The notes under the pieces were generated by a model, which was not told the DNA's origin, did not search any database, and worked only from the letters and a program-made list of their open reading frames with translations. Positions 2,431 through 34,308 of a stretch of DNA of 35,007 nucleotides are shown in pieces. Within the stretch, counting starts at the first letter, position 1. Each line of letters starts with the position of its first letter. The translations under genes were made by a program, and so were the position numbers. Source of the DNA: a virus (lineage: Duplodnaviria; Caudoviricetes); IMG/VR virus record IMGVR_UViG_3300025466_000107, positions 1-35,007 of that record; one strand, given 5' to 3'.

Positions 2431-2780
2431 TGGCTGCTTATCAGAACGTAACCCCAGTACAGTTATCACAGGCTAGTCTAACGACCAGCTATGTCACGCT
2501 CTATACTGTTCCATCTAATCCAACTACTCCTACTCGGACGTACATGAAGCAGATTGATGTCTGCAATACGACTGGTAGTCCCATCACGTTTAACCTGCAT
2601 ATTGTCCCTGCCACGTTCAGCGAGACAACCAATAATGCTTTTATTTATGGTGTATCGGTAGCGGCAAATAGTATTTATTCCTATTCTGGGGTACAGGTTT
2701 TGCCGACTGCTTCTACGATTCAAGCCAAGGCTTCAGCTACAGGTTTAAACATATTCATCAGTGGTGGTGAGGCCGTATGA
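2430..2780 (+). CDS. Small beta-sandwich-like virion/tail protein
   Basis: ATG at 2430 coupled to the upstream TAA; TLYTVP...VCNTT pattern common in phage tail regions. Confidence 0.6.
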   Translation: MAAYQNVTPVQLSQASLTTSYVTLYTVPSNPTTPTRTYMKQIDVCNTTGSPITFNLHIVPATFSETTNNAFIYGVSVAANSIYSYSGVQVLPTASTIQAKASATGLNIFISGGEAV

Positions 2781-3892
2781 CAACAACCGCAGTGGATTAT
2801 TCCAAGATATTTCCAGGGGCAAGCCAGCAGTTTTATGATGCTTTAAACGCTATTCAATCTGGCGGGGCTAAGGTTGGCTCTGTAACTATTCCTAGTCAAG
2901 ATGAGAATGGCAACGATATTTCGTTTAAGAGTACTGCGTTGGTTGATTCAAGCGGGAATCCAATCAGTTCAGCCGGGCTTAAACAAGTTGGCACTAACCA
3001 ATATGTGATCAGTACCCCATCAACTGGCGGGACAATGAACATTCCGGTCAGTATTGATCCTAAAACAGGAACAATTCAACCCGTCAATAATTACCAAAGC
3101 GTATCTTATACAGGTGGATCTTCAGGTTCTGTCCTTGGCCAGATAGGCAACACCGTTAATGGTGCTTTAAACGACCCCCTTGTCAACGCAGCAATAGGTT
3201 TAGCCATGCCCGGGGCAGCACCTTTTTTGGCTGGGGCCAAAACGGTGCAGAGTGTTGCTAGTGGTAAACCCTTAAATGTGGGTACAGTTCTTAATGCTTT
3301 AACTTCAGCATCTGGATTGGGCAGTACATTGGGTTTAGATCCATCCACTATAGATGCGTTAAATACAGCCAAAACTGCTGTCAGTGGTGTAAACGCAGTA
3401 CAGACCGGAAACCTGGCTGGGGCATTGACAAGTTTAAACAACTTAACAAATTTCCTCCCGGCTGGATCATCTCAGCTTGGAAATGTGGTTAGTGGGATTG
3501 CAGCCCTTAAAAAGGGTGACACAGCAGGCGCTTTAAGCGCCTTGTCTAGCCTGACATCAGATCCAAATCTACAGATAGCATCTCAGGCTGCTGGGGTTCT
3601 TAAACAATTAAGTCCAATTTTGGGTGGAGTTGCCAGTTCAAAATCTACAACTCCTTCTAGCAGTTCATCTGGGGCTTCATCTGGAGCTTCATCCAGTGCC
3701 TCCACTCCTTCCGCTGCGCCCATGACTTCAGGTATCGCCACACCGCAGACAACTCAAACAGTTGCAGGGCCAATTGTGGCCTATGACATGGAAGGTGTCT
3801 ACAATCCATTCGTGACAAATGAAACTCAAACCGCTAAAATGTCAGCAAAAGGCGGGTCTATAGGCTTGCCATCTCTATTAAGGGGTAAATAA
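2777..3892 (+). CDS. Putative ejection/internal virion protein, G/S/A-rich
   Basis: 371-aa ORF coupled at both ends; amphipathic GA-rich repeats (GNLAGALTSL / GDTAGALSAL); ends in an AKGG motif. Confidence 0.55.
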   Translation: MTTTAVDYSKIFPGASQQFYDALNAIQSGGAKVGSVTIPSQDENGNDISFKSTALVDSSGNPISSAGLKQVGTNQYVISTPSTGGTMNIPVSIDPKTGTIQPVNNYQSVSYTGGSSGSVLGQIGNTVNGALNDPLVNAAIGLAMPGAAPFLAGAKTVQSVASGKPLNVGTVLNALTSASGLGSTLGLDPSTIDALNTAKTAVSGVNAVQTGNLAGALTSLNNLTNFLPAGSSQLGNVVSGIAALKKGDTAGALSALSSLTSDPNLQIASQAAGVLKQLSPILGGVASSKSTTPSSSSSGASSGASSSASTPSAAPMTSGIATPQTTQTVAGPIVAYDMEGVYNPFVTNETQTAKMSAKGGSIGLPSLLRGK

Positions 3893-6669
3893 TGACGACC
3901 ACAGCCATATCAGATTCTTCTTCAGGTGATAATTCTCAATTAACTGACGAATACGGCAATCCAATATCTTGGAATCCTAATTTATCAACCCAAACCACTT
4001 ACACTAATGGTCAAAATGCTGGAACTTCTGTAACTGATTCATCTACAGGATTATCTTCAACACCAACAGATGGCTCTGGTACTTCCTTATCTTCTGCTTT
4101 AAACGATATTTCCAAGTTTATATCCACCAATAAAGGCATTTTAGGATTGGGTGCTTTGGGTAGCTTGGCAACCAGCAATACAGGTGGCGGGGGAGCAGGT
4201 TCTTCTAGCGCTTCTATCCCAGCCTTGATTGCATCTAGGATGCAGGTTCCCGGCGCTTCTAGCGTTGTCACGCCCGGCCAGCCTAACCAACAGTATTTCA
4301 CAGATACTCTTTATACCGATCCTAGCCAACAAGCCAATGCACAAGCTGCCATTGAGGCTCAGGCTCAAGCCATTGCGGCCAATAGGACTAACGCTCCTGT
4401 GCCTAATTTTGCTATGCCTTGGAATCAAGGAACATCTTCTGGCGCCCCCTACAATACTCCTTCGTATACAAACTATACAACAAGTGATATTGCCAACTTT
4501 ATAGCTGGTAGTGGTTTAAACGTTAATGATCCAGCCGCAGTTGCCGCTGCAACCAAAGCTCAGAATGCTAACCCTGCTGTGGTTAATCAATACATTGCTA
4601 GCTTGAAGAACAATCCTTCTGGCGTGGCAAGTCTACCAACCAGCACAACATCACCTATTGTGCAACAGACAGCAGATGGAGGTGGTGGCATTAAAACTTT
4701 AGCGACCACACCCACTCCCACTGTAACCAAACCCACACCTACTCCAACGCCTACGCCTTCGTATACACCTTATACAGCGCAGGATATTGCTAATTACATT
4801 GCACAAAACAATATTAATATACAAGATCCAGCTCAAGTATTGAATGCTATCAAGGCTACAAATGCTGACCCAGCCGTTGTTCAAGCAGCGCTACAGAACT
4901 TGCCTGCCGCTCAACCTCAGTATCAGCCCCAAGCAGCCCAATCAACTCAAGCCACAACTAATGCTACGAACTTTAATGATCTATTGAATTCACAAGCATT
5001 TACTAATCCTGCGGCTTATATGGCTTCTCAGGCAGCACCTACTCCATCTCCTGCGCCTACGCCTACTCCAACTCCTACGGCAACAACACCTCCTCCTGCC
5101 GACACTTCCACTATCACGCAGATTGTGTCTCAAGGTCAAGCAGCAGGCCAAACTCCTGCTGAGATGGCTTCTCAGCTCATTGCACAAGGTATCCCTGCGT
5201 CTGATGTTATTGCTGTGGTTGGCTCACAGAATGCTGATGTAGTGAATCAAGCTTATGCCGCAGCCTCTGCGCCTGCTGATAACAGTGCTTCATTTGGTTA
5301 CGATACTGCCGCTGACGGTGGATTGATGGAATTGCATTATGCGATGGGAGGATCAACCCCCGCAGAACCAAGATATCTACAAGGCCATACCGATGGCATG
5401 GCTGATGAACTCAACACATCCATTGATGGGGTTCAGCCTGCCAAATTAAGCCACGGTGAGTTTGTTGTTCCTGCGGATGTTGTCTCCCATTTAGGTAATG
5501 GTAACTCTGACGCAGGCGCTAAAAAACTTTATGAGATGATGGCCAGAGTTCGCAAAGCCAGAACAGGCAATGAAAAGCAGGGCAAGAGAATTGATCCTGA
5601 TAAATTCATGTATGGCGGGAAGGCTTATGCCAAAGGCGGTATTGCTAGTTTTGATGGAACAACTACCAGTACAGTATCTAATACCTCTGGGATTCCCGGT
5701 CTAACCAACACTGGGGGAACTTCCACCCAAGGACTATCTTCTTACATAGCTCCTTACGTGACCAACATGTTGGGACAAGGCCAAGCCTTGGCCAACACAT
5801 CCATGCCTGTTTATCAAGGGCCATTGACCGCTGGCCAGTCAGCTCTACAGAACCAACAGTTCATGGGTCTATCAGAAATGGCGCAGACTGGGTATAACCC
5901 AATGCAATATCAAACGCAGAATTGGAGTAATCAAGGCGCTCCACAGATGCCAAATGTTAATGTTCCAAGTCAAACCCAATCGGTTAGTCAAGCAGCCAAT
6001 CAAGGCACAGCAGGCTATGGCCAGCCTATGAGTTTAAACATGGATCAAGGTTCTAGTGCTGCTTCTCAGTACATGAACCCTTATTTGTCTCAGTCACTTC
6101 AGCCTCAATTAAACCTATTGGCTCAACAGGCTCAAATTAATGAGCAAGGTGATTTGGGTAAATTGACCTCTCAAGGCGCATTTGGTGGATCACGCCAAGC
6201 CGTGCTTCAGGGTATGGATCAGAATGCATTGCTAGGCCAACAGGCTAATCTAATTGGCCAAGGCTATAACACAGCCTATAACAATGCTCAAACTCAGTTT
6301 AATGCTGATCAACAAAGACAATTGCAGGCTCAACAAAATACCGAAGCTTCTCGTCAGTTCAGTGCTGGCTTTGGTCAACAGAATTTGCAGGCTCTTGGTA
6401 CGGCTGGAGGAGTTCAACAAGGCATTCAAAACGCCGCAGATCAAGCCGCTTACGCAGAGTTCCAGAAACAACAACAGTATCCCTATCAACAGTTGGCATT
6501 TGAGCAAAGCTTATTGCAAAACTTACCAACAAGCGCAACAACCACTACACCAAATTCCATGTCAGATTTAGGAACAGCCTTGGCTGCGTTGGGTGTAGCT
6601 CAAAATCCTTTGGTGTCTAATTTCTTAGGACTTGGATCTTCTTCTACAACGACTAACCCTCAAGGATAA
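3892..6669 (+). CDS. Putative DNA-ejection (pilot/DNA transfer) protein, Q/T/P-rich
   Basis: 925 aa with PT linkers; a GHTDGMAD...PAKLSHGEFVVPADVV domain; a C-terminal YMNPY...GAFGGSRQA Q-rich region typical of podovirus ejection proteins. Confidence 0.65.
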   Translation: MTTTAISDSSSGDNSQLTDEYGNPISWNPNLSTQTTYTNGQNAGTSVTDSSTGLSSTPTDGSGTSLSSALNDISKFISTNKGILGLGALGSLATSNTGGGGAGSSSASIPALIASRMQVPGASSVVTPGQPNQQYFTDTLYTDPSQQANAQAAIEAQAQAIAANRTNAPVPNFAMPWNQGTSSGAPYNTPSYTNYTTSDIANFIAGSGLNVNDPAAVAAATKAQNANPAVVNQYIASLKNNPSGVASLPTSTTSPIVQQTADGGGGIKTLATTPTPTVTKPTPTPTPTPSYTPYTAQDIANYIAQNNINIQDPAQVLNAIKATNADPAVVQAALQNLPAAQPQYQPQAAQSTQATTNATNFNDLLNSQAFTNPAAYMASQAAPTPSPAPTPTPTPTATTPPPADTSTITQIVSQGQAAGQTPAEMASQLIAQGIPASDVIAVVGSQNADVVNQAYAAASAPADNSASFGYDTAADGGLMELHYAMGGSTPAEPRYLQGHTDGMADELNTSIDGVQPAKLSHGEFVVPADVVSHLGNGNSDAGAKKLYEMMARVRKARTGNEKQGKRIDPDKFMYGGKAYAKGGIASFDGTTTSTVSNTSGIPGLTNTGGTSTQGLSSYIAPYVTNMLGQGQALANTSMPVYQGPLTAGQSALQNQQFMGLSEMAQTGYNPMQYQTQNWSNQGAPQMPNVNVPSQTQSVSQAANQGTAGYGQPMSLNMDQGSSAASQYMNPYLSQSLQPQLNLLAQQAQINEQGDLGKLTSQGAFGGSRQAVLQGMDQNALLGQQANLIGQGYNTAYNNAQTQFNADQQRQLQAQQNTEASRQFSAGFGQQNLQALGTAGGVQQGIQNAADQAAYAEFQKQQQYPYQQLAFEQSLLQNLPTSATTTTPNSMSDLGTALAALGVAQNPLVSNFLGLGSSSTTTNPQG

Positions 6670-6672
6670 ATC

Positions 6673-8121
6673 ATGCCAATGAATTTGTTCAAAGCTCAGG
6701 ATGATTTAAACAATCTGATTAGTCAGGCTAGGACACCTCAGCAAATTGATGCAGCCAAGGTTTACCTTAAGCAATTGGCCAACGGTGCTAATAAAGAGAT
6801 TCCACAGTTCATGGCTCTTAATGTCTTGAATCAAATGGAGTCATCTAATCCCACGCCTCCTCCTCCCACTGGAACTATCAAAGACAAGTTGACTGGAACT
6901 CCTCCTCCAATGCAGGCTGCCCCTCAAATGCCACAAGGTGGCCCACCACAGGGTGCGCCTATGCCTGCTCCACAACAAAATCCACAAGCGATGACAAAGG
7001 GCGGTATCGCTCATCTGCCTGTGGATGAGAAGATGTACAACTTCAAAGAAGGTGGAGTGATTGGGTTTAAGACTGGAGACCCTGTCCCAGATCCAACTTT
7101 CAAAGACCTATACACACAAGCCAAACAAGAAGCGGCAGACTACGCCAAGAATATGGAGATGCCTGCTGACCCCGATGCAGTGAGGGCGCAGTATGTTAAA
7201 GAACATCCTGAGATGGCTATCCTTAATCAATTACCCGGACAGGAATTGCAAAAAGGAATAGCAGCACAAGAAGCAGCCCAAAAGGCCGAGTATCAAAGAC
7301 AGTTGGCTCAAGGCGAAGGCAATAAAGCCATGAACCTTTCTAATGCTTTATTACAAGCCGCAGAGCAAACTCGTGGAACAAGAGGCTTGGGTGGTTTAGG
7401 CCCAGCATTGGCTGGGTTTGGTGGAACGTTCAATGCAGCCACAGCAGCAGAACAAGAGCGTGTAAACAAGCTTAACGCAGCCAAGCAAGAAAAAGATATG
7501 CTCATCTTGAAATACAAGAGTGATCTTGAAGCTGCTCAAAGAGCAGCGGCTGAAGGTAGGTTTGCCGAGAAGTTGGCCTATCAACATAGCATGGCTGATT
7601 CAATTAACAAAGCCAAACTCATGGGCTTTGATCTTGATTCTAAAGCTCTTACATCTGCGGCTGGTATTGATGAGGCTAAGATTCGTGAACGTGCTGCTTA
7701 TGCTGCTGCCAATAAGCCAACAGACTTCATGAATGCTTATAACATTCTTAAATCTGATCCTAAGAATCAAAATGTATCACAGGAAGAACTCCTCAAGAGG
7801 GCTTCAATGGCATTCCATGCGCCTCAAGAAGGTGGCGTACAGGAAAGAATGTTGTCATTTGCTATGGGACAAAAAGCCAAAATCAGAGAAGACATGAACA
7901 TCAAGATTGGCTTGATGAGTCCCAAAGGTTCTCCAGCTTATGAAGCAGCTCAAACTGAGATAGCAAGAAGAGAAAAAGCAATCGATGATCAGATCTCTCA
8001 ATTTATGGGTGGTATGATGCCAACAGGATCTTCCACAACTCCTGCGCCTACACAAACTAACCCTTTGTTGCCACCGCCCAGTAGTGGAGGTTGGGGTCAG
8101 TCTACTGTTGTTAATCCTTAA
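6673..8121 (+). CDS. Putative ejection/internal virion protein (coiled-coil)
   Basis: 482 aa, helical and A/Q/K-rich; MTKGG and FKEGG motifs; sits between the ejection protein and the giant protein. Confidence 0.55.
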   Translation: MPMNLFKAQDDLNNLISQARTPQQIDAAKVYLKQLANGANKEIPQFMALNVLNQMESSNPTPPPPTGTIKDKLTGTPPPMQAAPQMPQGGPPQGAPMPAPQQNPQAMTKGGIAHLPVDEKMYNFKEGGVIGFKTGDPVPDPTFKDLYTQAKQEAADYAKNMEMPADPDAVRAQYVKEHPEMAILNQLPGQELQKGIAAQEAAQKAEYQRQLAQGEGNKAMNLSNALLQAAEQTRGTRGLGGLGPALAGFGGTFNAATAAEQERVNKLNAAKQEKDMLILKYKSDLEAAQRAAAEGRFAEKLAYQHSMADSINKAKLMGFDLDSKALTSAAGIDEAKIRERAAYAAANKPTDFMNAYNILKSDPKNQNVSQEELLKRASMAFHAPQEGGVQERMLSFAMGQKAKIREDMNIKIGLMSPKGSPAYEAAQTEIARREKAIDDQISQFMGGMMPTGSSTTPAPTQTNPLLPPPSSGGWGQSTVVNP

Positions 8122-8123
8122 TT

Positions 8124-11100
8124 ATGCCAACATATAGAATCACTGCGCCTGATGGTAAAACCTATCAGATTGATGGGCCTGCGGGAGCCTCTCAAGAGGA
8201 CGTTAAAAACGAAGTGATTCGGCAGCATCCTTACGCTGCTTATACAACAGAAGAATTAAAGAATGCTCCTACTGCCTCAACCTCAACAGCAGATTTTCTG
8301 CGTCAGGTTGGACAAGGAGGAATCAGCGGGGCCAAGTCTTTAACCGATTTATTTGGTGCAGGCAATGATAGCCTATCCAAGGCAAATGAATATCTTGAAA
8401 AAGGTTTGTCTCCCCAGCTTATAGAAGAACAAAGGATTAACCAAGAACTTCAAGAACGTGCCAAAGGCAAGGGGATACTTGAGGAGTTGTCAGCCAATCT
8501 GCGCCCTGTTTTCCAACATCCCTTTACATCGACTGGGTCTGCAATAGCATCTAGTGTTCCAATGATTGCTGGTTCTGTTTTAGCAGAACCATTGGGTCTT
8601 GCAACCGCCGCCGAGTTAGGAATTGGCTCTTTAATGGGTCTTGGTGGACAGAAGGGTCAAAACTATCAGAATGTCCATGATGAGGCCATCAAGCAAGGTA
8701 AATCAGAACAAGAGGCCGAAGCCCTTGGTCAACAAGCCGCAGAGTATAGTGTTAAAAACTTACCCAGTTTGGCGGCGGGTGCATTATCTGGTGCATTGGA
8801 AGGCCCACTTAGCCCTGCGGCTAAACTTGGAAGATACTTGCGTCCCGGCGAATTGGCAGAGGGGGCTATTAAAAACATACCCAAACCAACCTTTGCTCGG
8901 GCTTTAGGTACATCTGCTCTTGAAAGTGGTTTAGGTGAATTTGTTCAAGGATCAGCGGCTCAGTTGGGTTCTAACCTGGCCCTACAGAACGCAGGATTTG
9001 ATACACCCCTTATGGAAGGTGTCATGGGTGCAGGCGCTCATGATGCCTTGATTGGTGCTTTGACGGGAGCGGCAGTATCGCCTGCTCAGTTAAGCAGTCT
9101 CAAGCGGGAATATGATGCTGACCAAGCCAAGATCCTAACAGAAGAAGCTGCCAAGAAACAGAAAGAAAGCGCAGATCTTCTAGCCAAGTTCAATGAACAG
9201 AACCAAATCAATCCCGAGCTTTTAGCTCTTCCTGCGCCTGCTCCGAAAGTTGAAGGCAATCAGGCTGAACAATCCCTATTCAACCCTCATGGTAACTACA
9301 CGGCAGAAGAGCTAGGCCCAGAGCGTGTAGCGGCTATTGATGCCCACAGGGCAGACAATGGTAAGCCTCCATTAAAGAGTTATTCAATTGAGGACATTGT
9401 TGATGCAATGCCCAGCCAATCTCTCGATCCCAATGACACTCGGGAAAAGAACCCAGCGGGCGAGAGAGCCGATTTAAACGCATTGATTGCTAACAAGGTG
9501 GGTCATACCAATGAGAAGGTAACCCCACAAGATGTGGTCAACAAGGCTATAGAAAAGAACGTAGATCCTTCTGGCGAAGGGTTTAAAGACTTCCTAAGAC
9601 GCACCACAGGTATTGGTGAGTTGAATATGATGACGGACGGCCAGAGATTTGCCGCCCAACAAGCATTGCAGAAGATGGAACCCCATACAGGGGAAGCTCC
9701 TTTAATTCTGCCTCGTGGCACAACGGCTACCCATTACGATGCAGATCAGCGTTTAAACAGCATCAATGCATTAGACCAATTGGGTGGGAACGTTAGCCAA
9801 GAGAAGGCTATCGAAACCATCAAGAAAGCTACCGGACTACAAAGAGATCAAGACGCACAGCATATGATTGCTGACCTTGTTCGGTCTGGTGATTTTGATT
9901 TAAACAAGGACAATGAGCTGGAGCAACCCAGCTCTACCTCGTATTTACCTAGTGGATACCATATTGAAGAAGGTTCGTTCAAGGAGGGTGAGGCCCCAGA
10001 ACACTTCAAGATCATGGCCGGAGATAAGGAACTTGGGATTGCTGATACCCAAGAAGCCGCAGAAGAGAAGAAAAATAAATACCTAGAAACTCGGGCTAAG
10101 AAGTCCGATAGTATTGATAAAGAGATAGAAGAAAAGCAAGCTGCCGTCCAAAAATCAAAAGATGATTTAGAAGCGATGGAGGCGATGGGTCAGGGAAGAA
10201 CTCCTGAATACCAAAAGGCATCTGGTGATTACGCCAGAAAGGTATCTGACACTGAAAAAGAGATTGGGAATTTAAACAGGACTAAAGCTGAATTAGATCC
10301 TGAAGTTAATCCTTTATCAATCAAGGCAGGAAACATCGTACCGAAGACCCGTAAGGGATTCACGATCTTCAAGAACAGCCAATCTATTGGTACTTTCCCT
10401 GATAGAAGTGCAGCAGAGAAAAGCATTGCTGCCAACCTTAGTACCAAGGAACTAGAACAGTTAACAGGTGACAAGCGCAGACGTAGCTTTGCTCGTTTGG
10501 CTGAACAAGAACTCAATGACCGGGTAACTCCAGGAATCAAGGTACGTGTAAACAAGGAGTTTGAGCAAGCTGCTCCTGAACTGGGTAAGCAGCTAGAAGC
10601 CATTTTGGCTAAGTTTGGGTTGAAGGGTGTCGGCTTAAAGCTCATGAGTACCCTTGGTGGAAACGAAGGTGAGTATGCACAAAGCCTCATCAAGATAGCC
10701 TTGGATATCACCGATCCAATTGGTGTATTGCGCCATGAATCCGTTCATGCATTGAAGGCGTTAGGGTTCTTTACCGACAACCAATGGAACGCTCTGAGGC
10801 GCATGGCGAAGGATAAATGGATCAAGGAATTCCTGAAGGATAAACCTTTTGCTGAAGGCAAATCCCGCTATGACGCATACATGGAAATGTACAAGGGGGA
10901 TATGAATGCCATCGAGGAGGAGGCTATAGCCGATGCCTTTAGGTATTATGCCGAGAAGGGAAGCCCCCCAGGAATGATTGCTGCGCTATTGAAGCGTTTA
11001 AACCAATTCTTTGAAGCCCTGCGTAACGTTCTAACCGGGAATGGATTCAACACCGCAGAGGATATCTTTGAAAAGATTGAGAAGGGTCAGTTGGTTAAGG

Positions 11101-25477: not shown

Positions 25478-25596
25478 TAATTGGAAGTGGAACTCCGATT
25501 AAGAGCCGTTAAATCAAACTCCGACCCCGCATGGGGTTGCGATAGCCCACAAGGTTATTGTGTTCCACCGGGGTTTGACTTAACGGCTTTTTTTTT
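25478..25596 (+). ncRNA. C4/CI-like antisense/attenuator RNA with an upstream target hairpin
   Basis: About 23-bp outer stem (25501-25523/25569-25591), two inner hairpins, unpaired GTTCCAC (25562-25568) complementary to the loop GTGGAAC (25487-25493), then a U-tract. Confidence 0.6.
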
Positions 25597-25864
25597 GTCT
25601 CCATTTTTCTATAACTCATTCACTGGTCGGTTAACAGTAGCGGTGAATGTTTAAACCCCCTACTATGGGAAAGACAAGGAAGCAGGGGTACGGGTGGCGA
25701 AGTTAGCGCCCTATTGTCGAACGGCTGACGAGTCACGTGGCTCCGGAGAGCATGGTGTAAAGGGCTTAGGATAGGCTAAGTCCGTCCACCAAAGAGCATC
25801 CCCTTGGGGATGCAATGACGGCAAGTAAAGGTATGACGGCTAAGACAGGGGGTTATCACTAACC

Positions 25865-26341
25865 ATGCGTGTTGTATTAACAAAGGAAGAGTTATTCATC
25901 TGCCGAACCCTCGGGGTCATGAGGAGATCTGCGGCGATGGGGAATGTTGTAGATCAACAGATGGGTAACCAAGAGACTTGGGCTATTGATATTGATGGAA
26001 TGATAGGTGAATACTGTGTGGCTAAGTATTTGAACCTATGCCCCGATCTGACGGTCGGGGTAAGATCAGGAGGGGCAGATCTCATGACCCACAAGGGAAT
26101 GAGTATGGATGTTAAAACTACTCGGCACAAAAACGGTAGGCTTTTAGCAACACTAAAGAAGATAGAAGATCCTTGTGATATTTACGTTCTTGCCATCGTT
26201 GATGACACGGGCGCAGATATTATTGGATGGGCAAGGAAGAATGATCTCTTCCAAGATAAAAACAAAGTGGATTTAGGGTTTGGTGAAGGCTATGCCCTCG
26301 AACAAAATCAATTAAAGGAATTCAAAAATGGCAACTCGTAA
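25865..26341 (+). CDS. Hypothetical protein, possibly restriction-endonuclease fold
   Basis: 158 aa; GE..VAKYL...GADL...MDVKTT resembles PD-(D/E)XK spacing. Confidence 0.55.
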   Translation: MRVVLTKEELFICRTLGVMRRSAAMGNVVDQQMGNQETWAIDIDGMIGEYCVAKYLNLCPDLTVGVRSGGADLMTHKGMSMDVKTTRHKNGRLLATLKKIEDPCDIYVLAIVDDTGADIIGWARKNDLFQDKNKVDLGFGEGYALEQNQLKEFKNGNS

Positions 26342-26582
26342 TTACAAACAAGAATATGAAAGATATGACGGCACTCCAGAGGTTAAAAAGAAAAGGGCAG
26401 AGAGAAACAAAGCACGGGCAATGTTAGAAAAAGCAGGCGTGGTTCACAAAGGCGATGGTAAAGACGTTGACCACAAACGACCCCTCAGCAAAGGGGGAAC
26501 TACGGTCATGGGGAATCTTCAGGCAAAACCTGCCAGCCAGAATCGCTCGTTTAAACGGAAATCTGATGGCAGCATGAAATGA
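26328..26582 (+). CDS. Small HNH endonuclease
   Basis: RNYKQEY...RAERNKAR...GDGKDVDHKRPLSKGG..NL...NRS. Confidence 0.8.
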   Translation: MATRNYKQEYERYDGTPEVKKKRAERNKARAMLEKAGVVHKGDGKDVDHKRPLSKGGTTVMGNLQAKPASQNRSFKRKSDGSMK

Positions 26583-28246: not shown

Positions 28247-28262
28247 CTCATGGGGTGAGCTT

Positions 28263-28363
28263 TGTTTAAACGCAAGGCTTTCCCTCCGCCAGAATCCCCA
28301 GGAACAGTTGTTTAAACGCAATGACCTACCTGGAACTCACAGCGGTCTTCTGTTTAAACGCAA
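28263..28363. repeat. Three direct copies of TGTTTAAACGCAA
   Basis: Exact 13-mers at 28263, 28309 and 28351 (spacing 46 and 42 bp) in the convergent intergenic gap. Confidence 0.9.
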
Positions 28364-28377
28364 ATCCTGGTGGGGAC

Positions 28378-28403
28378 AAAAAAAAGCGCCCCGAAAGGCG
28401 CTT
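28378..28403 (-). terminator. Intrinsic terminator of the leftward early operon
   Basis: AAGCGCC-CCGAAA-GGCGCTT stem with an A8 tract on the plus strand, directly after the stop at 28402. Confidence 0.8.
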
Positions 28404-28629
28404 AAGTTTTACATTTATATACCGCTCCAAACATCGTTTTGTACTGGCCAAAGGCTCGTGGGGTTTTATCGTACCCCATCTTGTAAACCCTCCATCGGCC
28501 ATCGTACTTGATGTATTTCTCCCCTGCGTTGACCTCCATGTCAGAGTTTATAAGTTCAATAATATGATCATATTTGTACGTCTGCTTTAGGAAATCGGGG
28601 TCACGGCACGTTAAGGCTTTGACCTTCAA
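28402..28629 (-). CDS. Hypothetical protein
   Basis: 75-aa coupled ORF, last gene before the terminator. Confidence 0.7.
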   Translation of the reverse strand: MKVKALTCRDPDFLKQTYKYDHIIELINSDMEVNAGEKYIKYDGRWRVYKMGYDKTPRAFGQYKTMFGAVYKCKT

Positions 28630-28835
28630 TGCATAGGCTTGTTGGGTGCAACAAGCTCATCATAGAGAACCGATGAATAATTCAGGAAGTCTTCCTTCGT
28701 CACGTCATTGTGTCTCATGATGTTTAAACAGACACTCATGAGGGTAGCAAAGGCGACCTCCTGCTCTATTTCGTTTTCAATGAGTAGATCAACAACCTTG
28801 TCGTTGAGGTCAACGATTTGTTTTAATGGGTTCAT
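28626..28835 (-). CDS. Hypothetical protein
   Basis: 69-aa ORF, GGAGG SD, ATGA overlaps. Confidence 0.7.
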   Translation of the reverse strand: MNPLKQIVDLNDKVVDLLIENEIEQEVAFATLMSVCLNIMRHNDVTKEDFLNYSSVLYDELVAPNKPMH

Positions 28836-29065
28836 ATTCCCTCCACTCGTTTGACAATGTCCATTGCATCGGGTTCATAGGGTGCAAGCACCTTAATGAG
28901 TTCATACATCTGCGGGGCAAAGGCAATCATCCTTGCGTTGTCCCTTTGTGCCTCAAGGGTCAGCACTTTAGATGAACAGTCAGCGATCCGAACATCTCCC
29001 GCTTTTGTGTATTCCCACACTGTCGTTTTATCGGGCGAACCGATCCACCATTGTTTAAACATCAT
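28832..29065 (-). CDS. Hypothetical protein (IADC...NARMIAFAPQMYEL phage motif)
   Basis: 77-aa ORF with GGAGG SD. Confidence 0.7.
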   Translation of the reverse strand: MMFKQWWIGSPDKTTVWEYTKAGDVRIADCSSKVLTLEAQRDNARMIAFAPQMYELIKVLAPYEPDAMDIVKRVEGI

Positions 29066-29154
29066 GGCCTCCAGTAAAGTAGATCAATCAATATAACAAC
29101 AACGGCAATCGCATAAGCGAGGGTCAGCGCCCATGAATCATCAATTGGTTTCAT
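29062..29154 (-). CDS. Small membrane peptide (30 aa, ending DLLYWRP)
   Basis: Translated by hand as MKPIDDSWALTLAYAIAVVVILIDLLYWRP; fills the gap and is coupled. Confidence 0.55.
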   Translation of the reverse strand: MKPIDDSWALTLAYAIAVVVILIDLLYWRP

Positions 29155-29335
29155 CTTCAGTCTCCCATGAACGGTTTTCAAACTCAGTCACCAATGCCTC
29201 GTCTGACATTTTGTCATAGGCAATCCCAAAGCGCAGAATGTAATCCAAGTACTCAACGTCATCATGTTGCATGGCCTGACGTATTGTCTCAATATCATCT
29301 TCGACTAATCGGTCAATCATTACTTGTCTATTCAT
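29141..29335 (-). CDS. Hypothetical acidic protein
   Basis: 64-aa ORF with GAGGAG SD. Confidence 0.7.
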   Translation of the reverse strand: MNRQVMIDRLVEDDIETIRQAMQHDDVEYLDYILRFGIAYDKMSDEALVTEFENRSWETEDETN

Positions 29336-29336
29336 T

Positions 29337-29507
29337 TTAGTTCTCCTCGATTTGTTCGTCCACGTCCGACTGGTCGTATCCAGTCAATATTTCAGGCCGA
29401 TAATGGCTCAACACCTCATCAACACACCTAGAACATACCCTCGCAAGAGGGATGTTTTGTGCGTCTGTTTCCCACCATGATTCTTCTTTTGTATGATTAC
29501 ATCTCAC
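29337..29507 (-). CDS. Hypothetical Cys-containing protein (56 aa, GTG start)
   Basis: Translated by hand as MRCNHTKEESWWETDAQNIPLARVCSRC...; AGGGAG SD. Confidence 0.55.
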   Translation of the reverse strand: MRCNHTKEESWWETDAQNIPLARVCSRCVDEVLSHYRPEILTGYDQSDVDEQIEEN

Positions 29508-29676
29508 GACTCTTCTCCCTTTTTAGAATATTACTCACCCAAACCTCAATCTCTTGATCGGACATTCGGCCGATCACCACGCCTGCCAACTCGTAGAATG
29601 TCATGTTGGCCATCTGTTTAAACATAGCGTCCACTATGTCATCTCCCCACGTCTGCTTGATGGTTTCAATTTGCAT
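29497..29676 (-). CDS. Hypothetical protein (MQIETIKQTW...)
   Basis: Likely start at 29676 with AGGGG SD. Confidence 0.6.
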   Translation of the reverse strand: MQIETIKQTWGDDIVDAMFKQMANMTFYELAGVVIGRMSDQEIEVWVSNILKREKSREM

Positions 29677-29848
29677 GGGGAATTCCCCTGAAATAACGCA
29701 AAGCACTACGGTCATTATTGTCAAGGTCATCAATGCATGACTCCATGTCATCGAGCGCCTGCTCGAATGAATCAAGGCCTTGCAAGTCCATGTAGTCAAT
29801 GACGGCTTGCTCTGCTGACTCGCCTGTGTGAATGAATGGTGTACCCAT
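29666..29848 (-). CDS. Hypothetical acidic protein
   Basis: 60-aa ORF, GGAGG SD, TAATG coupling. Confidence 0.65.
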   Translation of the reverse strand: MGTPFIHTGESAEQAVIDYMDLQGLDSFEQALDDMESCIDDLDNNDRSALRYFRGIPHAN

Positions 29849-30021
29849 TATTTTTCGTCCTCCACTTCCATGTTGTAGGCTTTGTTTTCCTCCCTTTCAA
29901 TTTCATCCATCCATTCTTCCACGTAAGGGATTGGAGGGAAATCCTCCCTGATTTCAGTTGCGCCATCATCCCACGTGATTTGGACTGCATAAGATTTAAT
30001 TCTTCTATCAAACATTTTCAT
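29848..30021 (-). CDS. Hypothetical acidic protein (MKMFDRRIKSYAVQITWDDG...)
   Basis: Translated by hand; coupled at both ends; preferred over the 29796-30011 frame. Confidence 0.6.
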   Translation of the reverse strand: MKMFDRRIKSYAVQITWDDGATEIREDFPPIPYVEEWMDEIEREENKAYNMEVEDEK

Positions 30022-30188
30022 TCCCCCTTATTGAGTTTATTAAGATTGATTACTTCCTTCCGCTTGGCCTGTCTTTTCAGAATGACCCTCGCCCTCGCCC
30101 CGTACTTATCGCCCGATTGTGGAGCGCAACAGGGGCAGGCGAACCCCCCGTTGCCCACGACTGAAAACCTCTTGTAAATGCCCTTCAT
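30018..30188 (-). CDS. Small basic protein with GxGGxxCPCC motif (56 aa)
   Basis: Translated by hand as MKGIYKRFSVVGNGGFACPCCAPQ...; AAGGGGG SD. Confidence 0.65.
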   Translation of the reverse strand: MKGIYKRFSVVGNGGFACPCCAPQSGDKYGARARVILKRQAKRKEVINLNKLNKGE

Positions 30189-30197
30189 GATTCCCCC

Positions 30198-31745
30198 TTA
30201 TGCTACTAATTTGATTTGTTTAAACGATGCGTTTGCCAAGTCTTTAACATCCCTGATGCAGATGTTGTTCTCATACACTCTCGACACGTCTAACTCGATG
30301 CCCACGCCCACGGTTGTAATGCCGAGGTTGTTGCCCTGTTTGATCTGAGCGATCACCTCATCAGCCCATCCATTACCATCGGTGAGGACGAATGCAATTT
30401 TGCGTGACTCGGGACGTGCGTTGAGGATCTCATGAGCGTAGCGAATTGCAAAGTAATCGTTGGTTGCGTAATTTGGGTTGAACTTTGCAAGTATTCTCTT
30501 GGCCTTGGCCACTGGCGTATTGAACGGGACAAGTGTTGAGGTGCGGTGATTGAATGCAATGATCTGCACGGCCACGCCTGCCTGAGTGAGGGTCTCATAA
30601 AGTGCAACGCACGTCTTGACGGCATTTGTAGTGCGTGACCCTGACATAGATCCTGACGCATCGAGGACAATCACGACCGCAGAATCAATACCGCCCTCTT
30701 CATGATGGCGTTTAAACACACGCACATTACCAGTGGCAATCGATGCAAGTGCGGATGAATTGATCTGCCCTGCCTTGCGGTTTAATTGGTACTCATCAAG
30801 TCCTGAGTCCTCGAAAAGTTTACGCACTTCATGACGTAGTCTTGAAGGCACGGCCACTGTAGTATCGTGATTGAGGCGATCGCTAGTGTGATCCTCTGCG
30901 TCTCCGAGTCCTGCCTCTTTATTGTATGACCCGATGCCTGCTTGACCCTCGGGGACTTCACAATTCGGTTCTGTTTCCCGTGCGTCTTGGCCATCGACTG
31001 GAGCGGTCGCTACGCCTTGATCGCCCTCGCCTGCACCCTCACCCTCACCCTCGCCTGTTTGATCGCCCTGAGCGTCTCCTGTGGCCTCCTGAGTACCCTC
31101 CTCGCCCTTGTCTTGACCCTTGTCTTGACCCTTGTCTTGACCTTGATCTGGTGACTGCTTGGGCAGTTGTTTCAATTGAGACATGATCCACTCTGCAATT
31201 TTCAAGGTGTCACGGCTTGACTTGGCACTGTCAATTCGAACACTGGCCTCATCGAATATTGGAGCGAGTCCCTCGGGCAGTGCGATCCTCTTGGCGTAAC
31301 GTCTGCCGTGGCAGGCAAACAGCCAAGGGTAATTACGGGGGTCGGCCATGCCCTCAGTGCCTGCCTCTGCGATCATTTGATTAATCAGCTTGCTAAAAAC
31401 GCCTGCAACGTTGCCCGTCATGCCGTCTGCGATTGCCTTGCGCTCGATCCACACGTCCTCTACTGCGTTATGCAACTGTCTCATGTATTGAGTTGTGGCA
31501 TTGACTGAGAAATCAGTGTACCTGACGTGACACAATTCATGGATGACGAACCCCACGTAGCGATCCAAAAAAGCCTGAGTAAGGATCGCATCGTCTGCCA
31601 CGTCTGCGAGCTTGACGAACCCCTGCGAATTAACCGAGGCAGTGGGGATATTTTCCCAACTCATGCCGTTAATTTTAAGAGTGCTATTGGCGCTGATTTT
31701 ATTGAGGATCGACTCGACCCCTGCTTTGAATGTATGACCTTTCAT
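30198..31745 (-). CDS. CobT-like protein: N-terminal HExxH metallopeptidase-like domain, acidic G/E/D linker, C-terminal vWA domain
   Basis: VIHELCHVRYTDF and NAVEDVWIE; MIDAS VLDASGSMS, T, LTDG. Confidence 0.85.
   Translation of the reverse strand: MKGHTFKAGVESILNKISANSTLKINGMSWENIPTASVNSQGFVKLADVADDAILTQAFLDRYVGFVIHELCHVRYTDFSVNATTQYMRQLHNAVEDVWIERKAIADGMTGNVAGVFSKLINQMIAEAGTEGMADPRNYPWLFACHGRRYAKRIALPEGLAPIFDEASVRIDSAKSSRDTLKIAEWIMSQLKQLPKQSPDQGQDKGQDKGQDKGEEGTQEATGDAQGDQTGEGEGEGAGEGDQGVATAPVDGQDARETEPNCEVPEGQAGIGSYNKEAGLGDAEDHTSDRLNHDTTVAVPSRLRHEVRKLFEDSGLDEYQLNRKAGQINSSALASIATGNVRVFKRHHEEGGIDSAVVIVLDASGSMSGSRTTNAVKTCVALYETLTQAGVAVQIIAFNHRTSTLVPFNTPVAKAKRILAKFNPNYATNDYFAIRYAHEILNARPESRKIAFVLTDGNGWADEVIAQIKQGNNLGITTVGVGIELDVSRVYENNICIRDVKDLANASFKQIKLVA
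31105..31140. repeat. 12-bp tandem repeat (CCCTTGTCTTGA) x3, encoding QDKG x3 in the linker
   Basis: Direct inspection. Confidence 0.9.
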
Positions 31746-33130
31746 TATTTCACCCCCAAGTACTTGTTGAAAATTTCAGCGTTTAAACAGGCAGACCCGA
31801 TGCCCCTTAAGGCGATACCTGAGTCCTCGACCTGACGGTTAACCATGACTGACTCCCATGCCTCGACCATGCCAAGGTAAGGCACGGCCTGAATGAACCC
31901 GATCACCTGACGAATGGACGGTGCGTCCAGTATGTCCCCAGTCTCGACCTTGGCACGTGCAGTATGCACGGCCTTGAGTACGTGCGTGGCCAATTCACGA
32001 CTGCATCCTGTATGCTTGACCACTGCATCGATCTCAAGATGCATTGGCAGGAAAGTAAATTTGATCACTGCGGTAAAGCGATCACCCAATGCAGAGTTCG
32101 TTGTGCGAGTCCCTGCATATCGGCCTGTGGTGTCACCATTGAGGAGGGTATTGTCTGCCCCGAAAATAATCACGCCCTCAGCCTTACGCCACACTTGACC
32201 CCCGTAGGTGACCTTGGCATTGGGTTCGAGAAACCCGTTCAAGGGTGCTAGCTCGCCTTGGTCTGCGTTAGTGATTTCATCCAAGAGGATCACAGTCGAG
32301 GGGGCAGTGTAAGCCCGCAGGAAGTCACCCTGTTTAAACACTGTTGCCCCGTTCTCCAAGCCCACATCTCCAAGGTAATCCGAGGCAGTGGTGTACTTGT
32401 GAAAGTTGTAGCGCATGAACCCACGGCCTGTACGTGCCGAGAATTGCTCGGCAGTCTGACTCTTGCCTGTACCCTTTTCACCCCCGAACCAAGTATTCCT
32501 GCCCGTGTCCTGAGCGAAAGCGAGGGTTCGCAGAATGGACTCAGTCCAAATAAAGCAGGGGTCAACCGCAGGGGCAGTAGAGTCATTGTAGATATCGAAT
32601 TCAAAGGGGAGGTCAACCCCAAAAACATCAAGGCAGGATCTGCGATCCACTTTGACCACGGGGTTTAAATTAGCGACCTTGGCCTCTGACCCTGATGCAA
32701 TGACGGCCTGTTTAAACGGGGCAAAGGCGTTGTCAATCAGGGTCTCAAGCTTGCGATTGACCTCTGCCTGATCCACTCCAACGCTGACCTCGGCAATGTC
32801 TGCGAGTGAGTCCTCGATCCTCTGAATGGCCTTAGACTGCACGTCTAGGGTGTTGGTCAAGGCCTTGATTTTCTCGACTGATTCCAAGGCCACGGCCTGA
32901 GCATTATTGGCCACTGCCTCGATGGCAGGGTTAGCCGTACTGACAACGGGGGCGAATGGTAGTGCTTGTCTCACGTCATCGACACTCAATTTGCCTGCAT
33001 CGATTTGGCCATCGAGCCACTGGATCATGACGGTTTTTTCGGCAGGCGTTGACCCTGAAAATTTGATGTAAGCCCCTGCAATCGTTGCCGTGGGCAGAGA
33101 GGCCATGACTTGTTTGTTGACGATTCCCAT
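31745..33130 (-). CDS. MoxR/CobS-like AAA+ ATPase with a long N-terminal coiled-coil extension
   Basis: Walker A GEKGTGKS, Walker B ILLDE, ADNT sensor, NSALGDRF arginine finger, SIRQ; adjacent to the vWA gene. Confidence 0.9.
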   Translation of the reverse strand: MGIVNKQVMASLPTATIAGAYIKFSGSTPAEKTVMIQWLDGQIDAGKLSVDDVRQALPFAPVVSTANPAIEAVANNAQAVALESVEKIKALTNTLDVQSKAIQRIEDSLADIAEVSVGVDQAEVNRKLETLIDNAFAPFKQAVIASGSEAKVANLNPVVKVDRRSCLDVFGVDLPFEFDIYNDSTAPAVDPCFIWTESILRTLAFAQDTGRNTWFGGEKGTGKSQTAEQFSARTGRGFMRYNFHKYTTASDYLGDVGLENGATVFKQGDFLRAYTAPSTVILLDEITNADQGELAPLNGFLEPNAKVTYGGQVWRKAEGVIIFGADNTLLNGDTTGRYAGTRTTNSALGDRFTAVIKFTFLPMHLEIDAVVKHTGCSRELATHVLKAVHTARAKVETGDILDAPSIRQVIGFIQAVPYLGMVEAWESVMVNRQVEDSGIALRGIGSACLNAEIFNKYLGVK

Positions 33131-33141
33131 AATTTTTATCC

Positions 33142-33726
33142 TTATGCTAGGGTTAGAGCTTGGCCATCGATGGGGCAGGCAGGCAAACGGGGACTGCCGT
33201 ATTCATCGAATGCCCACTTAGAGGTGAGTCGAATGGTATAACCACAGGCACACATGGCCTTGAGCATCCTAGTGCCTTGAGTCTTACGGGTAGCGTAGGA
33301 CAATTGAGCATGAGGGTAGTCACCAAGGGATTGAATGATCGCCCCGTATCGTGACATGAAATCGACTGCCCCTGATGTTGCCTTGTATCCACGTGTTGCC
33401 GAGGGAACTAAGCCCATATAATCGGCGATGCGTTTAAACGTTGCACCATGATTCATTGCCCCGTTCGTTGTGTGGCAGAGTTCATGGATCACGCACTCAG
33501 CGACTGCTTGAGGGTCGGCCAATTCAGGGGAGATCAAAATCTCAAAGTGGTTATCGCCTGAGTTCTGAGCAGGGAAACACTCACCGATTGCACGGGAGCG
33601 CTTGGCATTCAAAGGGAAACCGCAAGTAATGCGAATGGCCTGCGGTAAGGGAAACCCGTAAAGGTCAAACATGGGGCGCAACTCTTGAATGAGTGCGACA
33701 AGATACTCCTCACGTGTAGAAAACAT
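33142..33726 (-). CDS. SprT-like zinc metalloprotease with a C-terminal Zn ribbon
   Basis: IGECF...EILISP...VIHELCH...HGATF; CACGY...PACP; GGAGG SD before ATG 33726. Confidence 0.75.
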   Translation of the reverse strand: MFSTREEYLVALIQELRPMFDLYGFPLPQAIRITCGFPLNAKRSRAIGECFPAQNSGDNHFEILISPELADPQAVAECVIHELCHTTNGAMNHGATFKRIADYMGLVPSATRGYKATSGAVDFMSRYGAIIQSLGDYPHAQLSYATRKTQGTRMLKAMCACGYTIRLTSKWAFDEYGSPRLPACPIDGQALTLA

Positions 33727-33804
33727 AAAACCTCCGATTAAAGAATGGCAATATCGCCACGTACAAGGCCAGTGTTTAAATCTCAACCTCTGAACCTTTA
33801 ACGC

Positions 33805-33834
33805 ATGATATCACTATTGGTTGACAAGGTGCAA
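33805..33834 (-). promoter_or_regulatory. Sigma70 promoter of the early SprT-MoxR-vWA operon
   Basis: Minus strand TTGCAC-18 nt-TATCAT with an extended TG; AT-rich UP-like tract upstream (33835-33858). Confidence 0.6.
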
Positions 33835-34153
33835 GTAATATTTTAATTTATTTTATTTGAGGGCAATTCAAAGCCTTATATATTAGAGGACGGCCTGCAC
33901 TGCGTTTGTGTATCTAAGTATTCATTTTGAGTTTAAGCATAGAGTATGCCAAGGGTCAATAACTTAACATAATCAGACCGATTTTTAGCCTCTTGGTGAG
34001 CCGATCGGGTGTCGGACATGGTTTACTATTGAAAAGTTTTTTTGAGCGATTCTAGGGGTGTTTTAAGCGTTTTAGAGAACTATAGTTCTAGCGTGTGTAT
34101 TTGAAAATAAAAGGGTTACAAAGTACATATAAATTGAATACTATTAATGTATA

Positions 34154-34229
34154 TGTGGATAAAGCTGGGTATAAACTGTGGATAACATCCTGTGGATAAC
34201 ATTTGTGAGTTATACACTACAGTGGATAA
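34154..34229. promoter_or_regulatory. Cluster of DnaA boxes
   Basis: TGTGGATAA (reverse complement TTATCCACA) exact at 34154, 34177 and 34191; one-mismatch boxes at 34166, 34210 and 34221. Confidence 0.8.
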
Positions 34230-34233
34230 GCTG

Positions 34234-34261
34234 TTGACAAGAACGACACTGTAATTACAAT
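34234..34261 (+). promoter_or_regulatory. Sigma70 promoter of terS
   Basis: TTGACA-16 nt-TACAAT. Confidence 0.6.
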
Positions 34262-34308
34262 CAGGGTTAGTCAGTGTTGCAGGTGATTACTACGGGGAGT
34301 GTTTAAAC

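What the first reader, a model, noticed from the sequence alone, without database searches (positions are those of the whole stretch)
2743..34308. Genome-wide, frame-independent iterated palindrome (Y)GTTTAAAC(R)
Seen: at least 38 exact GTTTAAAC by hand count, at 2743, 3432, 4514, 6032, 9751, 10996, 11521, 12425, 13918, 14153, 14710, 15545, 15643, 17254, 17534, 18263, 21671, 22040, 23144, 23452, 24875, 25649, 26549, 26904, 27456, 28264, 28310, 28352, 28722, 29053, 29616, 30218, 30710, 31781, 32332, 32710, 33432 and 34301. Roughly one is expected by chance in 35 kb. 28/38 are preceded by C/T and 33/38 are followed by A/G, giving a 10-bp palindrome. There are also 13 GTGTAAAC/GTTTACAC variants and many ATTTAAAC/CTTTAAAC near-matches. 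The motif occurs in genes on both strands and in two reading frames (x-L-N and F-K-x), so selection appears to act on the DNA rather than the protein. Established: phages usually avoid palindromes because of restriction; iterated motifs such as HIP1, Chi, KOPS and matS are chromosome-organisation signals. Inference: this is a dispersed binding-site system, for example for genome coating or protection, packaging, ejection, recombination, or a decoy/self mark. The RHH protein (22173-22481) and TerS are candidate binders.
Basis: partly seen in the sequence, partly recalled or inferred. Interest (0 to 1): 0.85.

Follow-up and report, generated by a model that had tools for sequence, protein, structure and literature searches.

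The report
Phage DNA address word and reader
This lake phage writes the eight-letter palindrome GTTTAAAC at almost every place its genes allow, and across the unrelated phages and plasmids compared the word goes with one small zinc-ribbon protein that likely binds it as a dimer and would act as a genome-wide repressor, a candidate for the missing repressor of several cultured temperate phages.

Summary
In detail: 38 GTTTAAAC against 0.6 expected, with 32 of 35 codable positions used, and the flanks and variants as reported. It is not a host signal: same-host phage pairs differ 17 vs 0 and 20 vs 1. The likely reader is not the RHH protein or TerS but the SprT-like gene at 33142-33726, the only window gene shared with 11 unrelated word-bearing cultured replicons. 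The word tracks its C-terminal zinc ribbon, not its protease: 11 of 12 records with an intact ribbon carry the word, 4 with a degenerate ribbon carry 0-1 copies, 12 without the gene carry 0-3. Catalytically dead relatives keep full arrays, and two phages encode the ribbon alone. The protein is predicted to dimerise, and a site usually lies just upstream of its own gene. Best reading: an autoregulated, stoperator-like repressor/roadblock system with an unrelated reader. Against it: this clade has no integrase or ParA, and the word is nearly invariant across host phyla. Binding and repression are untested. This scan noted the same word and gene before on other genomes; ten literature searches found no description of the pairing.

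The parts
2743..34308 (.). Array of 38 perfect GTTTAAAC sites (2743, 3432, 4514, 6032, 9751, 10996, 11521, 12425, 13918, 14153, 14710, 15545, 15643, 17254, 17534, 18263, 21671, 22040, 23144, 23452, 24875, 25649, 26549, 26904, 27456, 28264, 28310, 28352, 28722, 29053, 29616, 30218, 30710, 31781, 32332, 32710, 33432, 34301); 13 in the 17.2-kb virion arm, 25 in the 17.8-kb early/replication arm
378..34962 (.). 13 G-form sites GTGTAAAC/GTTTACAC (378, 3387, 7460, 10546, 11554, 14582, 18541, 19698, 22150, 27524, 34924, 34938, 34955); 12 A-form sites ATTTAAAC/GTTTAAAT are also dispersed over the window
33142..33726 (-). SprT-like zinc-ribbon gene, 194 aa; the likely reader
   Evidence: PHROG 6361 E 7.7e-34; Pfam SprT-like E 2e-4, below cut-off; association tests
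33307..33726 (-). N-terminal SprT/Wss1-like domain (residues 1-140) with intact HELCH at residues 81-85 (33472-33486); predicted dimer interface
33145..33285 (-). C-terminal Cys ribbon (residues 148-194, KTQGTRMLKAMCACGYTIRLTSKW...CP); inferred DNA-reading domain; Q150, T152, R153, C159, C161, Y163, R166, K170, W171, C184 invariant in 80 homologues
33774..33781 (.).
34234..34308 (+). Best sigma-70 match of the region scanned (TTGACA-16-TACAAT, 34234-34261), with a perfect site at 34301-34308 filling the spacer between the SD and the TerS start codon
   Evidence: site near the TerS start in 41 of 58 clade loci
34924..34962 (+). Three G-form sites at the end of TerS
   Evidence: two or more sites around or after the TerS end in 48 of 58 clade loci
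28264..28359 (.). Three perfect sites, 42-46 bp apart, just after the primase-helicase stop, between converging terminator-like hairpins
   Evidence: two or more sites within 250 bp after the stop in 37 of 45 clade loci, background 6%
34154..34199 (.).
   Evidence: two or more boxes upstream of TerS in 55 of 58 clade loci

Best explanation
The 38 palindromes are a selected genome-wide address that is likely read by the phage's own SprT-like zinc-ribbon protein (33142-33726), which is predicted to dimerise and would act as a repressor and transcription roadblock on the phage's own DNA. Shown here: the word is selected at DNA level, is phage-specific, and tracks the C-terminal ribbon of this one gene across unrelated phages and a plasmid. 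Predicted: the N-terminal SprT-fold domains dimerise and leave two ribbons free on linkers, one for each half-site (consensus (Y)GT(T/G)TAAAC(R)). Inferred: the protein fills the perfect sites first, then shuts its own promoter through a weaker site; sites at the TerS start and at operon ends hold back late and read-through transcription, and sites inside genes add spaced roadblocks, as stoperators do. In integrase-bearing AZ/EH-type phages this would be lysogeny; in this integrase-less clade it would be a carrier state or a delay of late genes. Release by self-cleavage through the HExxH site is speculation, and cannot apply to the many relatives that lost it.
For: Reader: only gene of 40 shared with all 11 word-bearing cultured replicons. 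Of 28 hand-picked records, 12 have an intact ribbon and 11 of them carry 4-37 sites; 4 have the N-domain with a degenerate ribbon and carry 0, 0, 0, 1; 12 lack the gene and carry 0-3. Same-host pairs: Floof 17 vs BubbaBear 0; JasmineDragon 20 vs CallinAllBarbz 1. Picking contigs by the word alone, 13 of the 16 densest have the gene. Two encode only the 55-60 aa ribbon, each with a site about 50 bp upstream, and carry 42 and 23 sites in under 20 kb. HExxH lost in 16 of 48 clade rows at equal density (16.5 vs 15.8 per 10 kb). Dimer: score 0.82, best control 0.00; the mark was reached by 20 of 30 solved homodimers and 1 of 23 monomers; runs agree in at least 93% of contacts, pLDDT at least 87; interface in the N-domain. 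Repression: a site lies within about 70 bp upstream of the gene in 9 of 13 word-bearing cultured records, and upstream of the truncated gene in Liebe; in 15 of 46 clade loci an imperfect site lies 44-85 bp upstream, often inside a -35/-10 promoter. Conserved clusters at the primase end and TerS start and end. Spacing more even than random in 5 of 9 cultured phages at P<0.05. Literature: AZ phages form lysogens with no identified repressor, and Liebe (frameshift in this gene, clear plaques) differs from Maureen (turbid) by that change and three others (bioRxiv 10.1101/2025.05.26.655371, section 14); among 116 Microbacterium phages only Floof, Percival and Zeta1847 are named as turbid, integrase-bearing and without a repressor gene (PMC7302621 passages), and all three carry this gene.
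Against: No binding or repression was measured. This clade shows no sign of lysogeny: no tyrosine integrase or resolvase in 10 near-complete relatives, no ParA in 5, and only 14 GTDB loci, all in MAGs, none shown integrated. Marky, R5C, ep3 and JasmineDragon also lack both integrase types tested, yet Marky has 37 sites. The word is nearly the same in phages of three or more host phyla, whereas immunity operators usually diverge. 32 of 38 sites are inside genes, and in the window and two complete relatives spacing is random (CV 0.90-1.18). Exceptions: plasmid pRS1931s1 has an intact ribbon and no T/G-form site; ep3 (4, gene present) is barely above ECOO78 (3, gene absent); G211 has a dense 12-bp version and no detected reader. 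No ribbon residue cleanly separated the T-, G- and A-form users by eye. The cultured records are hand-picked and fall into a few lineages, so counts are not independent.
Confidence: 0.52

Rival explanations
1. Same reader, different job: a self-limiting coat or self-mark. The protein covers phage DNA at intervals during infection to block host translocating or restriction machines, organise replicating DNA, or guide packaging, and repression of its own promoter only matches protein to site number.
For: Near-saturation of codable positions, even at the cost of amino-acid changes; even spacing in cultured phages; the densest arrays are in integrase-less phages; word conserved across host phyla; clusters beside TerS and sites within 60 bp of the left end in GardenState, Floof and Liebe; low-density arrays on plasmid pUT1, where the gene sits next to the partition genes; strong avoidance of other palindromes shows restriction pressure.
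Against: Clear/turbid contrast of Liebe and Maureen and of EH versus EB phages; sites in core promoters and between SD and start codon; one dimer per 1-6 kb covers little DNA; close relatives lose gene and word together and remain viable.
Confidence: 0.3
2. A DNA-tethered SPRTN/Wss1-like protease: the array parks an active metalloprotease along the genome to cut host or phage proteins that bind or get trapped on it.
For: N-domain fold nearest SPRTN, Wss1 and minigluzincins (Foldseek best E 6e-3; VIA Z 7.5-7.7, middling); HExxH intact in the window, in 32 of 48 clade rows and in all 13 cultured rows aligned.
Against: HExxH lost in 16 of 48 clade rows with undiminished arrays; ribbon-only genes go with very dense arrays; four records keep the protease domain and lack the word.
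Confidence: 0.09
3. One reading: the RHH protein (22173-22481) or TerS binds the word.
For: Both are conserved in the two complete clade relatives tested; sites cluster at TerS.
Against: Neither has a tblastn match (E<1e-3) in any of 11 unrelated word-bearing replicons.
Confidence: 0.04
4. A host signal (Chi-, KOPS-, matS-, HIP1- or uptake-like) or a mutational by-product copied by the phage.
For: The true host is unknown, so its chromosome could not be examined directly.
Against: Same-host phage pairs differ 17 vs 0 and 20 vs 1. In 151 genomes of the order of a Burkholderiales MAG, YGTTTAAACR peaks at 38 per 2.0 Mb against 25 per 35 kb here. The word occurs in phages of Actinomycetota and of several proteobacterial classes.
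Confidence: 0.03

Closest known systems
Operator/stoperator arrays of Cluster A mycobacteriophages (L5, Bxb1; PMC6550527 passages read, PMC9283540 seen in a search listing)
   Same: 20-30 repressor sites spread over the genome, most not at promoters, read by a phage-encoded protein that also controls its own promoter; AZ/EH/BH-type phages here carry 16-37.
   Different: Stoperators are asymmetric, oriented with transcription, differ between subclusters, and are read by a monomeric two-domain repressor. Here the site is an 8-10 bp palindrome in either orientation, nearly invariant across host phyla, mostly inside genes, with an unrelated SprT-fold plus ribbon protein predicted to be a dimer, and it is densest in phages without integrase.
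SprT-like protease of Cluster AZ/EH/EB actinophages (Lizalica gp46; bioRxiv 10.1101/2025.05.26.655371, section 14 read)
   Same: [quoted passage not shown]
   Different: The preprint predicts a SPRTN-like protease function and gives no binding word (0 hits for GTAAAC/GTTTAC in its main text). The word, the ribbon dependence, the dispensable catalytic site and the dimer model are not in it.
SPRTN/Wss1 DNA-dependent metalloproteases
   Same: N-domain fold and HExxH.
   Different: Known as structure-specific repair proteases without a sequence address (recalled); here catalysis is often lost and the ribbon can stand alone.
HIP1 of cyanobacteria (seen in search listing; features recalled)
   Same: 8-bp palindrome iterated through coding DNA independent of frame.
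   Different: HIP1 is a host-chromosome feature tied to a methylated core; this word is phage/plasmid-specific, AT-rich and tied to a replicon-encoded reader.
Lambda CI / LexA repressors (recalled)
   Same: DNA-binding domain joined by a linker to a peptidase-fold domain that dimerises.
   Different: Different folds and reversed order; a few operators instead of tens; self-cleavage is not shown here.

Membership tests
Cluster A stoperator system | About 20-30 sites dispersed over the genome, most not at promoters | tested here: met
   38 perfect sites in 35 kb, 32 coding; 16-37 in the actinophages
Cluster A stoperator system | Asymmetric site oriented with transcription | tested here: not met
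   Perfect palindrome; the asymmetric G-form occurs both ways in nearly all-rightward genomes (GardenState 10:6, Yang 6:14)
Cluster A stoperator system | Reader homologous to the L5-type repressor | tested here: inconclusive
Cluster A stoperator system | Temperate phage with integrase or parABS | tested here: not met
   0 of 10 near-complete relatives with PF00589 or PF00239, 0 of 5 with PF13614; met only by some cultured carriers (Yang, GardenState, Persinger, Alexa)
Cluster A stoperator system | Bound repressor blocks elongation and gives immunity | not testable with these tools
   Needs reporters and immunity assays
SPRTN/Wss1-like proteases | SprT/minigluzincin fold | tested here: inconclusive
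   Model pLDDT 93; Foldseek best 6mdw E 6.1e-3, none under 1e-3; VIA Z 7.7, rmsd 3.1, 96 aligned to 6mdx, tied with other minigluzincins; Pfam SprT-like 21.5 bits, cut-off 25.6
SPRTN/Wss1-like proteases | HExxH zinc site | tested here: met
   HELCH at 81-85 in the window; lost in 16 of 48 clade rows
SPRTN/Wss1-like proteases | DNA-activated proteolysis or self-cleavage | not testable with these tools
   Needs purified protein
HIP1 / Chi / KOPS / matS / uptake sequences | Enriched in the host chromosome | tested here: not met
   151 genomes of the presumed host order, maximum 19 per Mb against about 700 per Mb here; the real host is unknown; same-host phage controls lack it
HIP1 | Cognate DNA methyltransferase | tested here: inconclusive
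   None among 41 window proteins scanned, but the window is about 35 of 60-65 kb; no methylome available

The most novel reading that the evidence does not exclude
A widespread, undescribed class of phage repressor built from a SPRTN-like protease: the peptidase domain dimerises, two zinc ribbons silence the genome at tens of palindromic sites, and DNA-triggered self-cleavage of the linker switches it off, a RecA-independent mirror image of lambda CI. It would be the missing repressor of AZ/EH actinophages, and in integrase-less lake phages it would mark a dormant, non-integrated state replicated from the adjacent DnaA-box origin.
Probability: 0.2. Interest if true: 0.93.

Novelty: new variant of a known kind. 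Interest (0 to 1): 0.78.

Why it matters
It assigns a binding word to a large phage/plasmid protein family now labelled 'SprT-like protease' or 'transcription elongation protein' (2,661 clusters at 50% identity with E<=1e-10). It makes a stated open question testable in harmless lab strains: which gene is the immunity repressor of Cluster AZ and EH phages. If the repressor reading holds, stoperator-style silencing evolved twice from unrelated parts, and abundant integrase-less lake phages may have a hidden dormant state. If the coat reading holds, it is a new kind of sequence-addressed self-mark on phage DNA. Either way the word is a cheap sequence tag for the system.

Tried and rejected
Literature: ten searches found no paper on this word in phages or on its pairing with the gene. 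Most subscription journals are not in the library, and I opened no supplements; the AZ preprint mentions repeats 'data not shown' near this gene, and its supplements were closed. Papers seen: 10.1101/2025.05.26.655371 (passages and section 14), PMC8758107, PMC6550527 and PMC7302621 (passages only); others only as listings. The ribbon folded alone gave a poor model (pLDDT 51), so its fold was not searched. The ESM Atlas gave leads only (best 0.82; a Zn_ribbon_SprT cluster at 0.78). A profile search of solved structures gave one weak hit (E 0.57). I looked for a replacement word in the three EB phages with altered ribbon residues against five EB phages without the gene and found none, nor in CN1. 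No simple residue code for the three word forms was seen; in Yang and Liebe the G-form may reflect TTAA avoidance (0/19 and 1/32; CallinAllBarbz 0/27), but G002 uses the G-form without TTAA depletion (60/55). Even spacing was rejected for the window and for G005 and G018; G002, G204 are clustered. Eight word-selected contigs with only 3-4.5-fold excess and no reader were not counted as arrays. G221 and G231 are dense without a reader but only 35% and 51% complete; G223 was missed by the profile search and later showed a divergent homologue with a site just upstream. The reverse test used 44 contigs of 17 kb or more among the first 80 of 120 loci, and 5 of its 13 dense positives were clade members already seen. 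No RNA holder was listed among 24 freshwater runs. One of the 151 genomes (G074) is unpublished; no claim depends on it. Percival and Zeta1847 were not counted for the word.

Full report
What the window is. A 35,007-bp fragment of a tailed phage held by freshwater metagenomes: endolysin, virion and ejection proteins including a 3026-aa polyvalent protein, Sak, exonuclease, RusA, primase-helicase, a MoxR/vWA pair, an SprT-like gene and TerS. Complete relatives are 60-65 kb. No cultured phage exceeds 32% identity in the primase among the best rows. A Burkholderiales host is my inference from one MAG contig with a 64%-identical homologue; it is not established.

Observation. Confirmed in full: 38 sites against 0.62 expected; 32 in genes against 2.0 after synonymous shuffling, using 32 of 35 codable positions in both open frames. 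Use falls in the order GTTTAAAC 32/35, GTGTAAAC 10/17, ATTTAAAC 11/49, CTTTAAAC 5/41, and 0-1 for ten control words, which reads like an affinity series. The peptides that can carry the word are themselves over-represented (35 vs 12), so selection has altered proteins. The genome meanwhile avoids CGCG and many 6-bp palindromes.

Relatives. Of 80 loci fetched by the primase (many near-duplicates), 75 hold the word at 2.4-21.6 per 10 kb; four use GTGTAAAC with no GTTTAAAC, one uses ATTTAAAC with none, and one mostly ATTTAAAC. In 36 aligned primase genes one site is kept in 33, while most others come and go; L054 has changed two of them to the A-form by synonymous change.

Not the host. YGTTTAAACR reaches at most 38 per 2.0 Mb in 151 genomes of the presumed host order, against 25 in this window. 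Phages isolated on the same strain differ sharply: Floof 17 vs BubbaBear 0, JasmineDragon 20 vs CallinAllBarbz 1.

Earlier scan notes pointed to the SprT-like gene; I tested this independently. All 82 viral loci fetched by this gene hold 3 or more perfect sites, and 41 of 46 primase-selected contigs, 9 of 9 near-complete ones, hold the gene. Among 40 window proteins only this one matches all 11 unrelated word-bearing cultured replicons; RHH and TerS match none. In 28 hand-picked records: 12 have an intact ribbon, and 11 of them carry the word (Marky 37, Yang 20, Liebe 17, R5C 17, GardenState 16, Alexa 9, Mica 7, pUT1 6, Mano 4, Persinger 4, ep3 4), often at under 0.3 expected; ep3 is weak. The twelfth, plasmid pRS1931s1, has none, but has GTGTACAC about 50 bp upstream of its gene. 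Four records keep the protease domain with altered ribbon residues and carry 0, 0, 0 and 1. Twelve lack the gene and carry 0 (eight), 1, 2, 2 and 3. In the reverse test, contigs picked only by a pair of words had the gene in 21 of 44 cases and in 13 of the 16 densest; two of the three dense misses are fragments. These counts span few lineages and are not independent.

Which part reads. HExxH is lost in 16 of 48 clade rows with no drop in density. Two phages encode only the 55-60 aa ribbon, each with a site about 50 bp upstream, and carry 42 and 23 sites in under 20 kb. The AlphaFold2 model (pLDDT 93) has an N-domain nearest SPRTN, Wss1 and minigluzincins at middling scores, a low-confidence linker and a small Cys ribbon whose fold could not be tested alone. 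Two copies are predicted to pair through residues 3-7, 32-43, 51-70 and 139-145: score 0.82, best control 0.00, a mark reached by 20 of 30 solved homodimers and 1 of 23 monomers, runs agreeing in at least 93% of contacts, pLDDT at least 87. This supports but does not show a dimer; it suits a palindrome and would explain why those residues stay invariant. How ribbon-only versions pair is unexplained.

What it likely does. A site lies within about 70 bp upstream of the gene in 9 of 13 word-bearing cultured records, upstream of the truncated gene in Liebe, upstream of the preceding gene in GardenState and R5C, and inside the gene in pUT1. In 15 of 46 clade loci an imperfect site lies 44-85 bp upstream, often in a -35/-10 spacer; 31 have none within 130 bp. 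The window has GTTTAAAT 47 bp upstream. This is the pattern of negative autoregulation through a weaker operator (inference). Clusters are positionally conserved after the primase stop (37 of 45, background 6%), at the TerS start (41 of 58) and at its end (48 of 58). Spacing is more even than random in Yang (CV 0.44, P 1e-4), Marky (0.60, 3e-4), Floof (0.50, 0.003), Liebe (0.60, 0.02) and R5C (0.61, 0.03), not significantly in Mica, Alexa, GardenState or JasmineDragon, and random in the window (0.90) and two complete relatives. Published phenotypes lean to repression: Liebe, with a frameshift in this gene and three other changes, is clear while Maureen is turbid, and AZ phages have no identified repressor; Floof, Percival and Zeta1847 are the turbid, repressor-less exceptions among 116 Microbacterium phages. 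Against a plain immunity repressor: no integrase, resolvase or ParA in this clade, none of two integrase types in Marky, R5C, ep3 or JasmineDragon, no integrated copy shown in GTDB, and a word that barely changes across host phyla. DnaA boxes beside the gene in 55 of 58 loci leave room for a non-integrated carrier state but do not show one.

Comparison and novelty. It would work like the Cluster A stoperator system but fails membership on site symmetry, orientation and lifestyle. The protein family is known by annotation and was proposed as a candidate repressor in one preprint, without a word. Ten searches found no description of the pairing; supplements were not seen. The scan has noted the same word and gene in at least 15 other genomes; added here are same-host controls, the ribbon-only genes, the dimer model, the weak-site autoregulation pattern, the spacing test and the conserved clusters. 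Family size: 3,812 clusters at E<=0.001, 2,661 at 1e-10, 809 at 1e-30. Verdict: real, new variant of a known kind, interest 0.78.

Noticed in passing
Possible host-initiated origin or DnaA sink.
   Followed up: partly
window, whole length: A second enriched word, CTGCG/CGCAG: 134 copies, 130 in genes against 50 after synonymous shuffling; 11-65 per 10 kb across the clade, so separate from the main word. CTTCTAGC and CTGGAACT are also 9 vs under 1 in genes.
   Followed up: no
window, whole length: Complete absence of CGCG and of many 6-bp palindromes (CCATGG, TGCGCA, CTGCAG, GCATGC), a footprint of host restriction systems.
   Followed up: no
L472 (G211), 1-17948: A phi29-like phage with inverted terminal repeats carries CCGTTTAAACGG 22 times, mostly just upstream of gene starts, with no SprT-like or ribbon gene detected: probably a separate start-associated system on the same core word.
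   Followed up: partly
L503:5797-5964 (+) and L504 about 14460-14640 (-): Stand-alone ribbon genes of 55-60 aa, each directly followed by a gene starting MTTT(F/-)GMEFEVQG.
   Followed up: partly
window 28246-28260 and L046-L080 after the primase stop: A small hairpin GCTCA-N5-TGAGC(T) recurs between the clustered sites after the primase gene in many relatives.
   Followed up: no
window 8124-17204: 3026-aa polyvalent protein with ART-PolyVal and LPD38 domains, probably ejected with the DNA; all 13 codable GTTTAAAC positions of the virion arm are used.
   Followed up: no
   Followed up: no
L231:1-2806 and L232:1541-4814: On plasmids pUT1 and pRS1931s1 the SprT-like gene sits beside the replication and partition genes; 74 plasmid records match, mostly Sphingomonadaceae.
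   Followed up: partly
L273 about 2411: PPpW-3 lacks the gene but keeps a site at the same place as Mano's (2413), perhaps a vestige after gene loss.
   Followed up: no
L317-L320, L322, L324, L327: Dormibacterota MAG contigs carry intact-ribbon homologues with one GTTTAAAC about 700-780 bp downstream of the start and few other sites.
   Followed up: no
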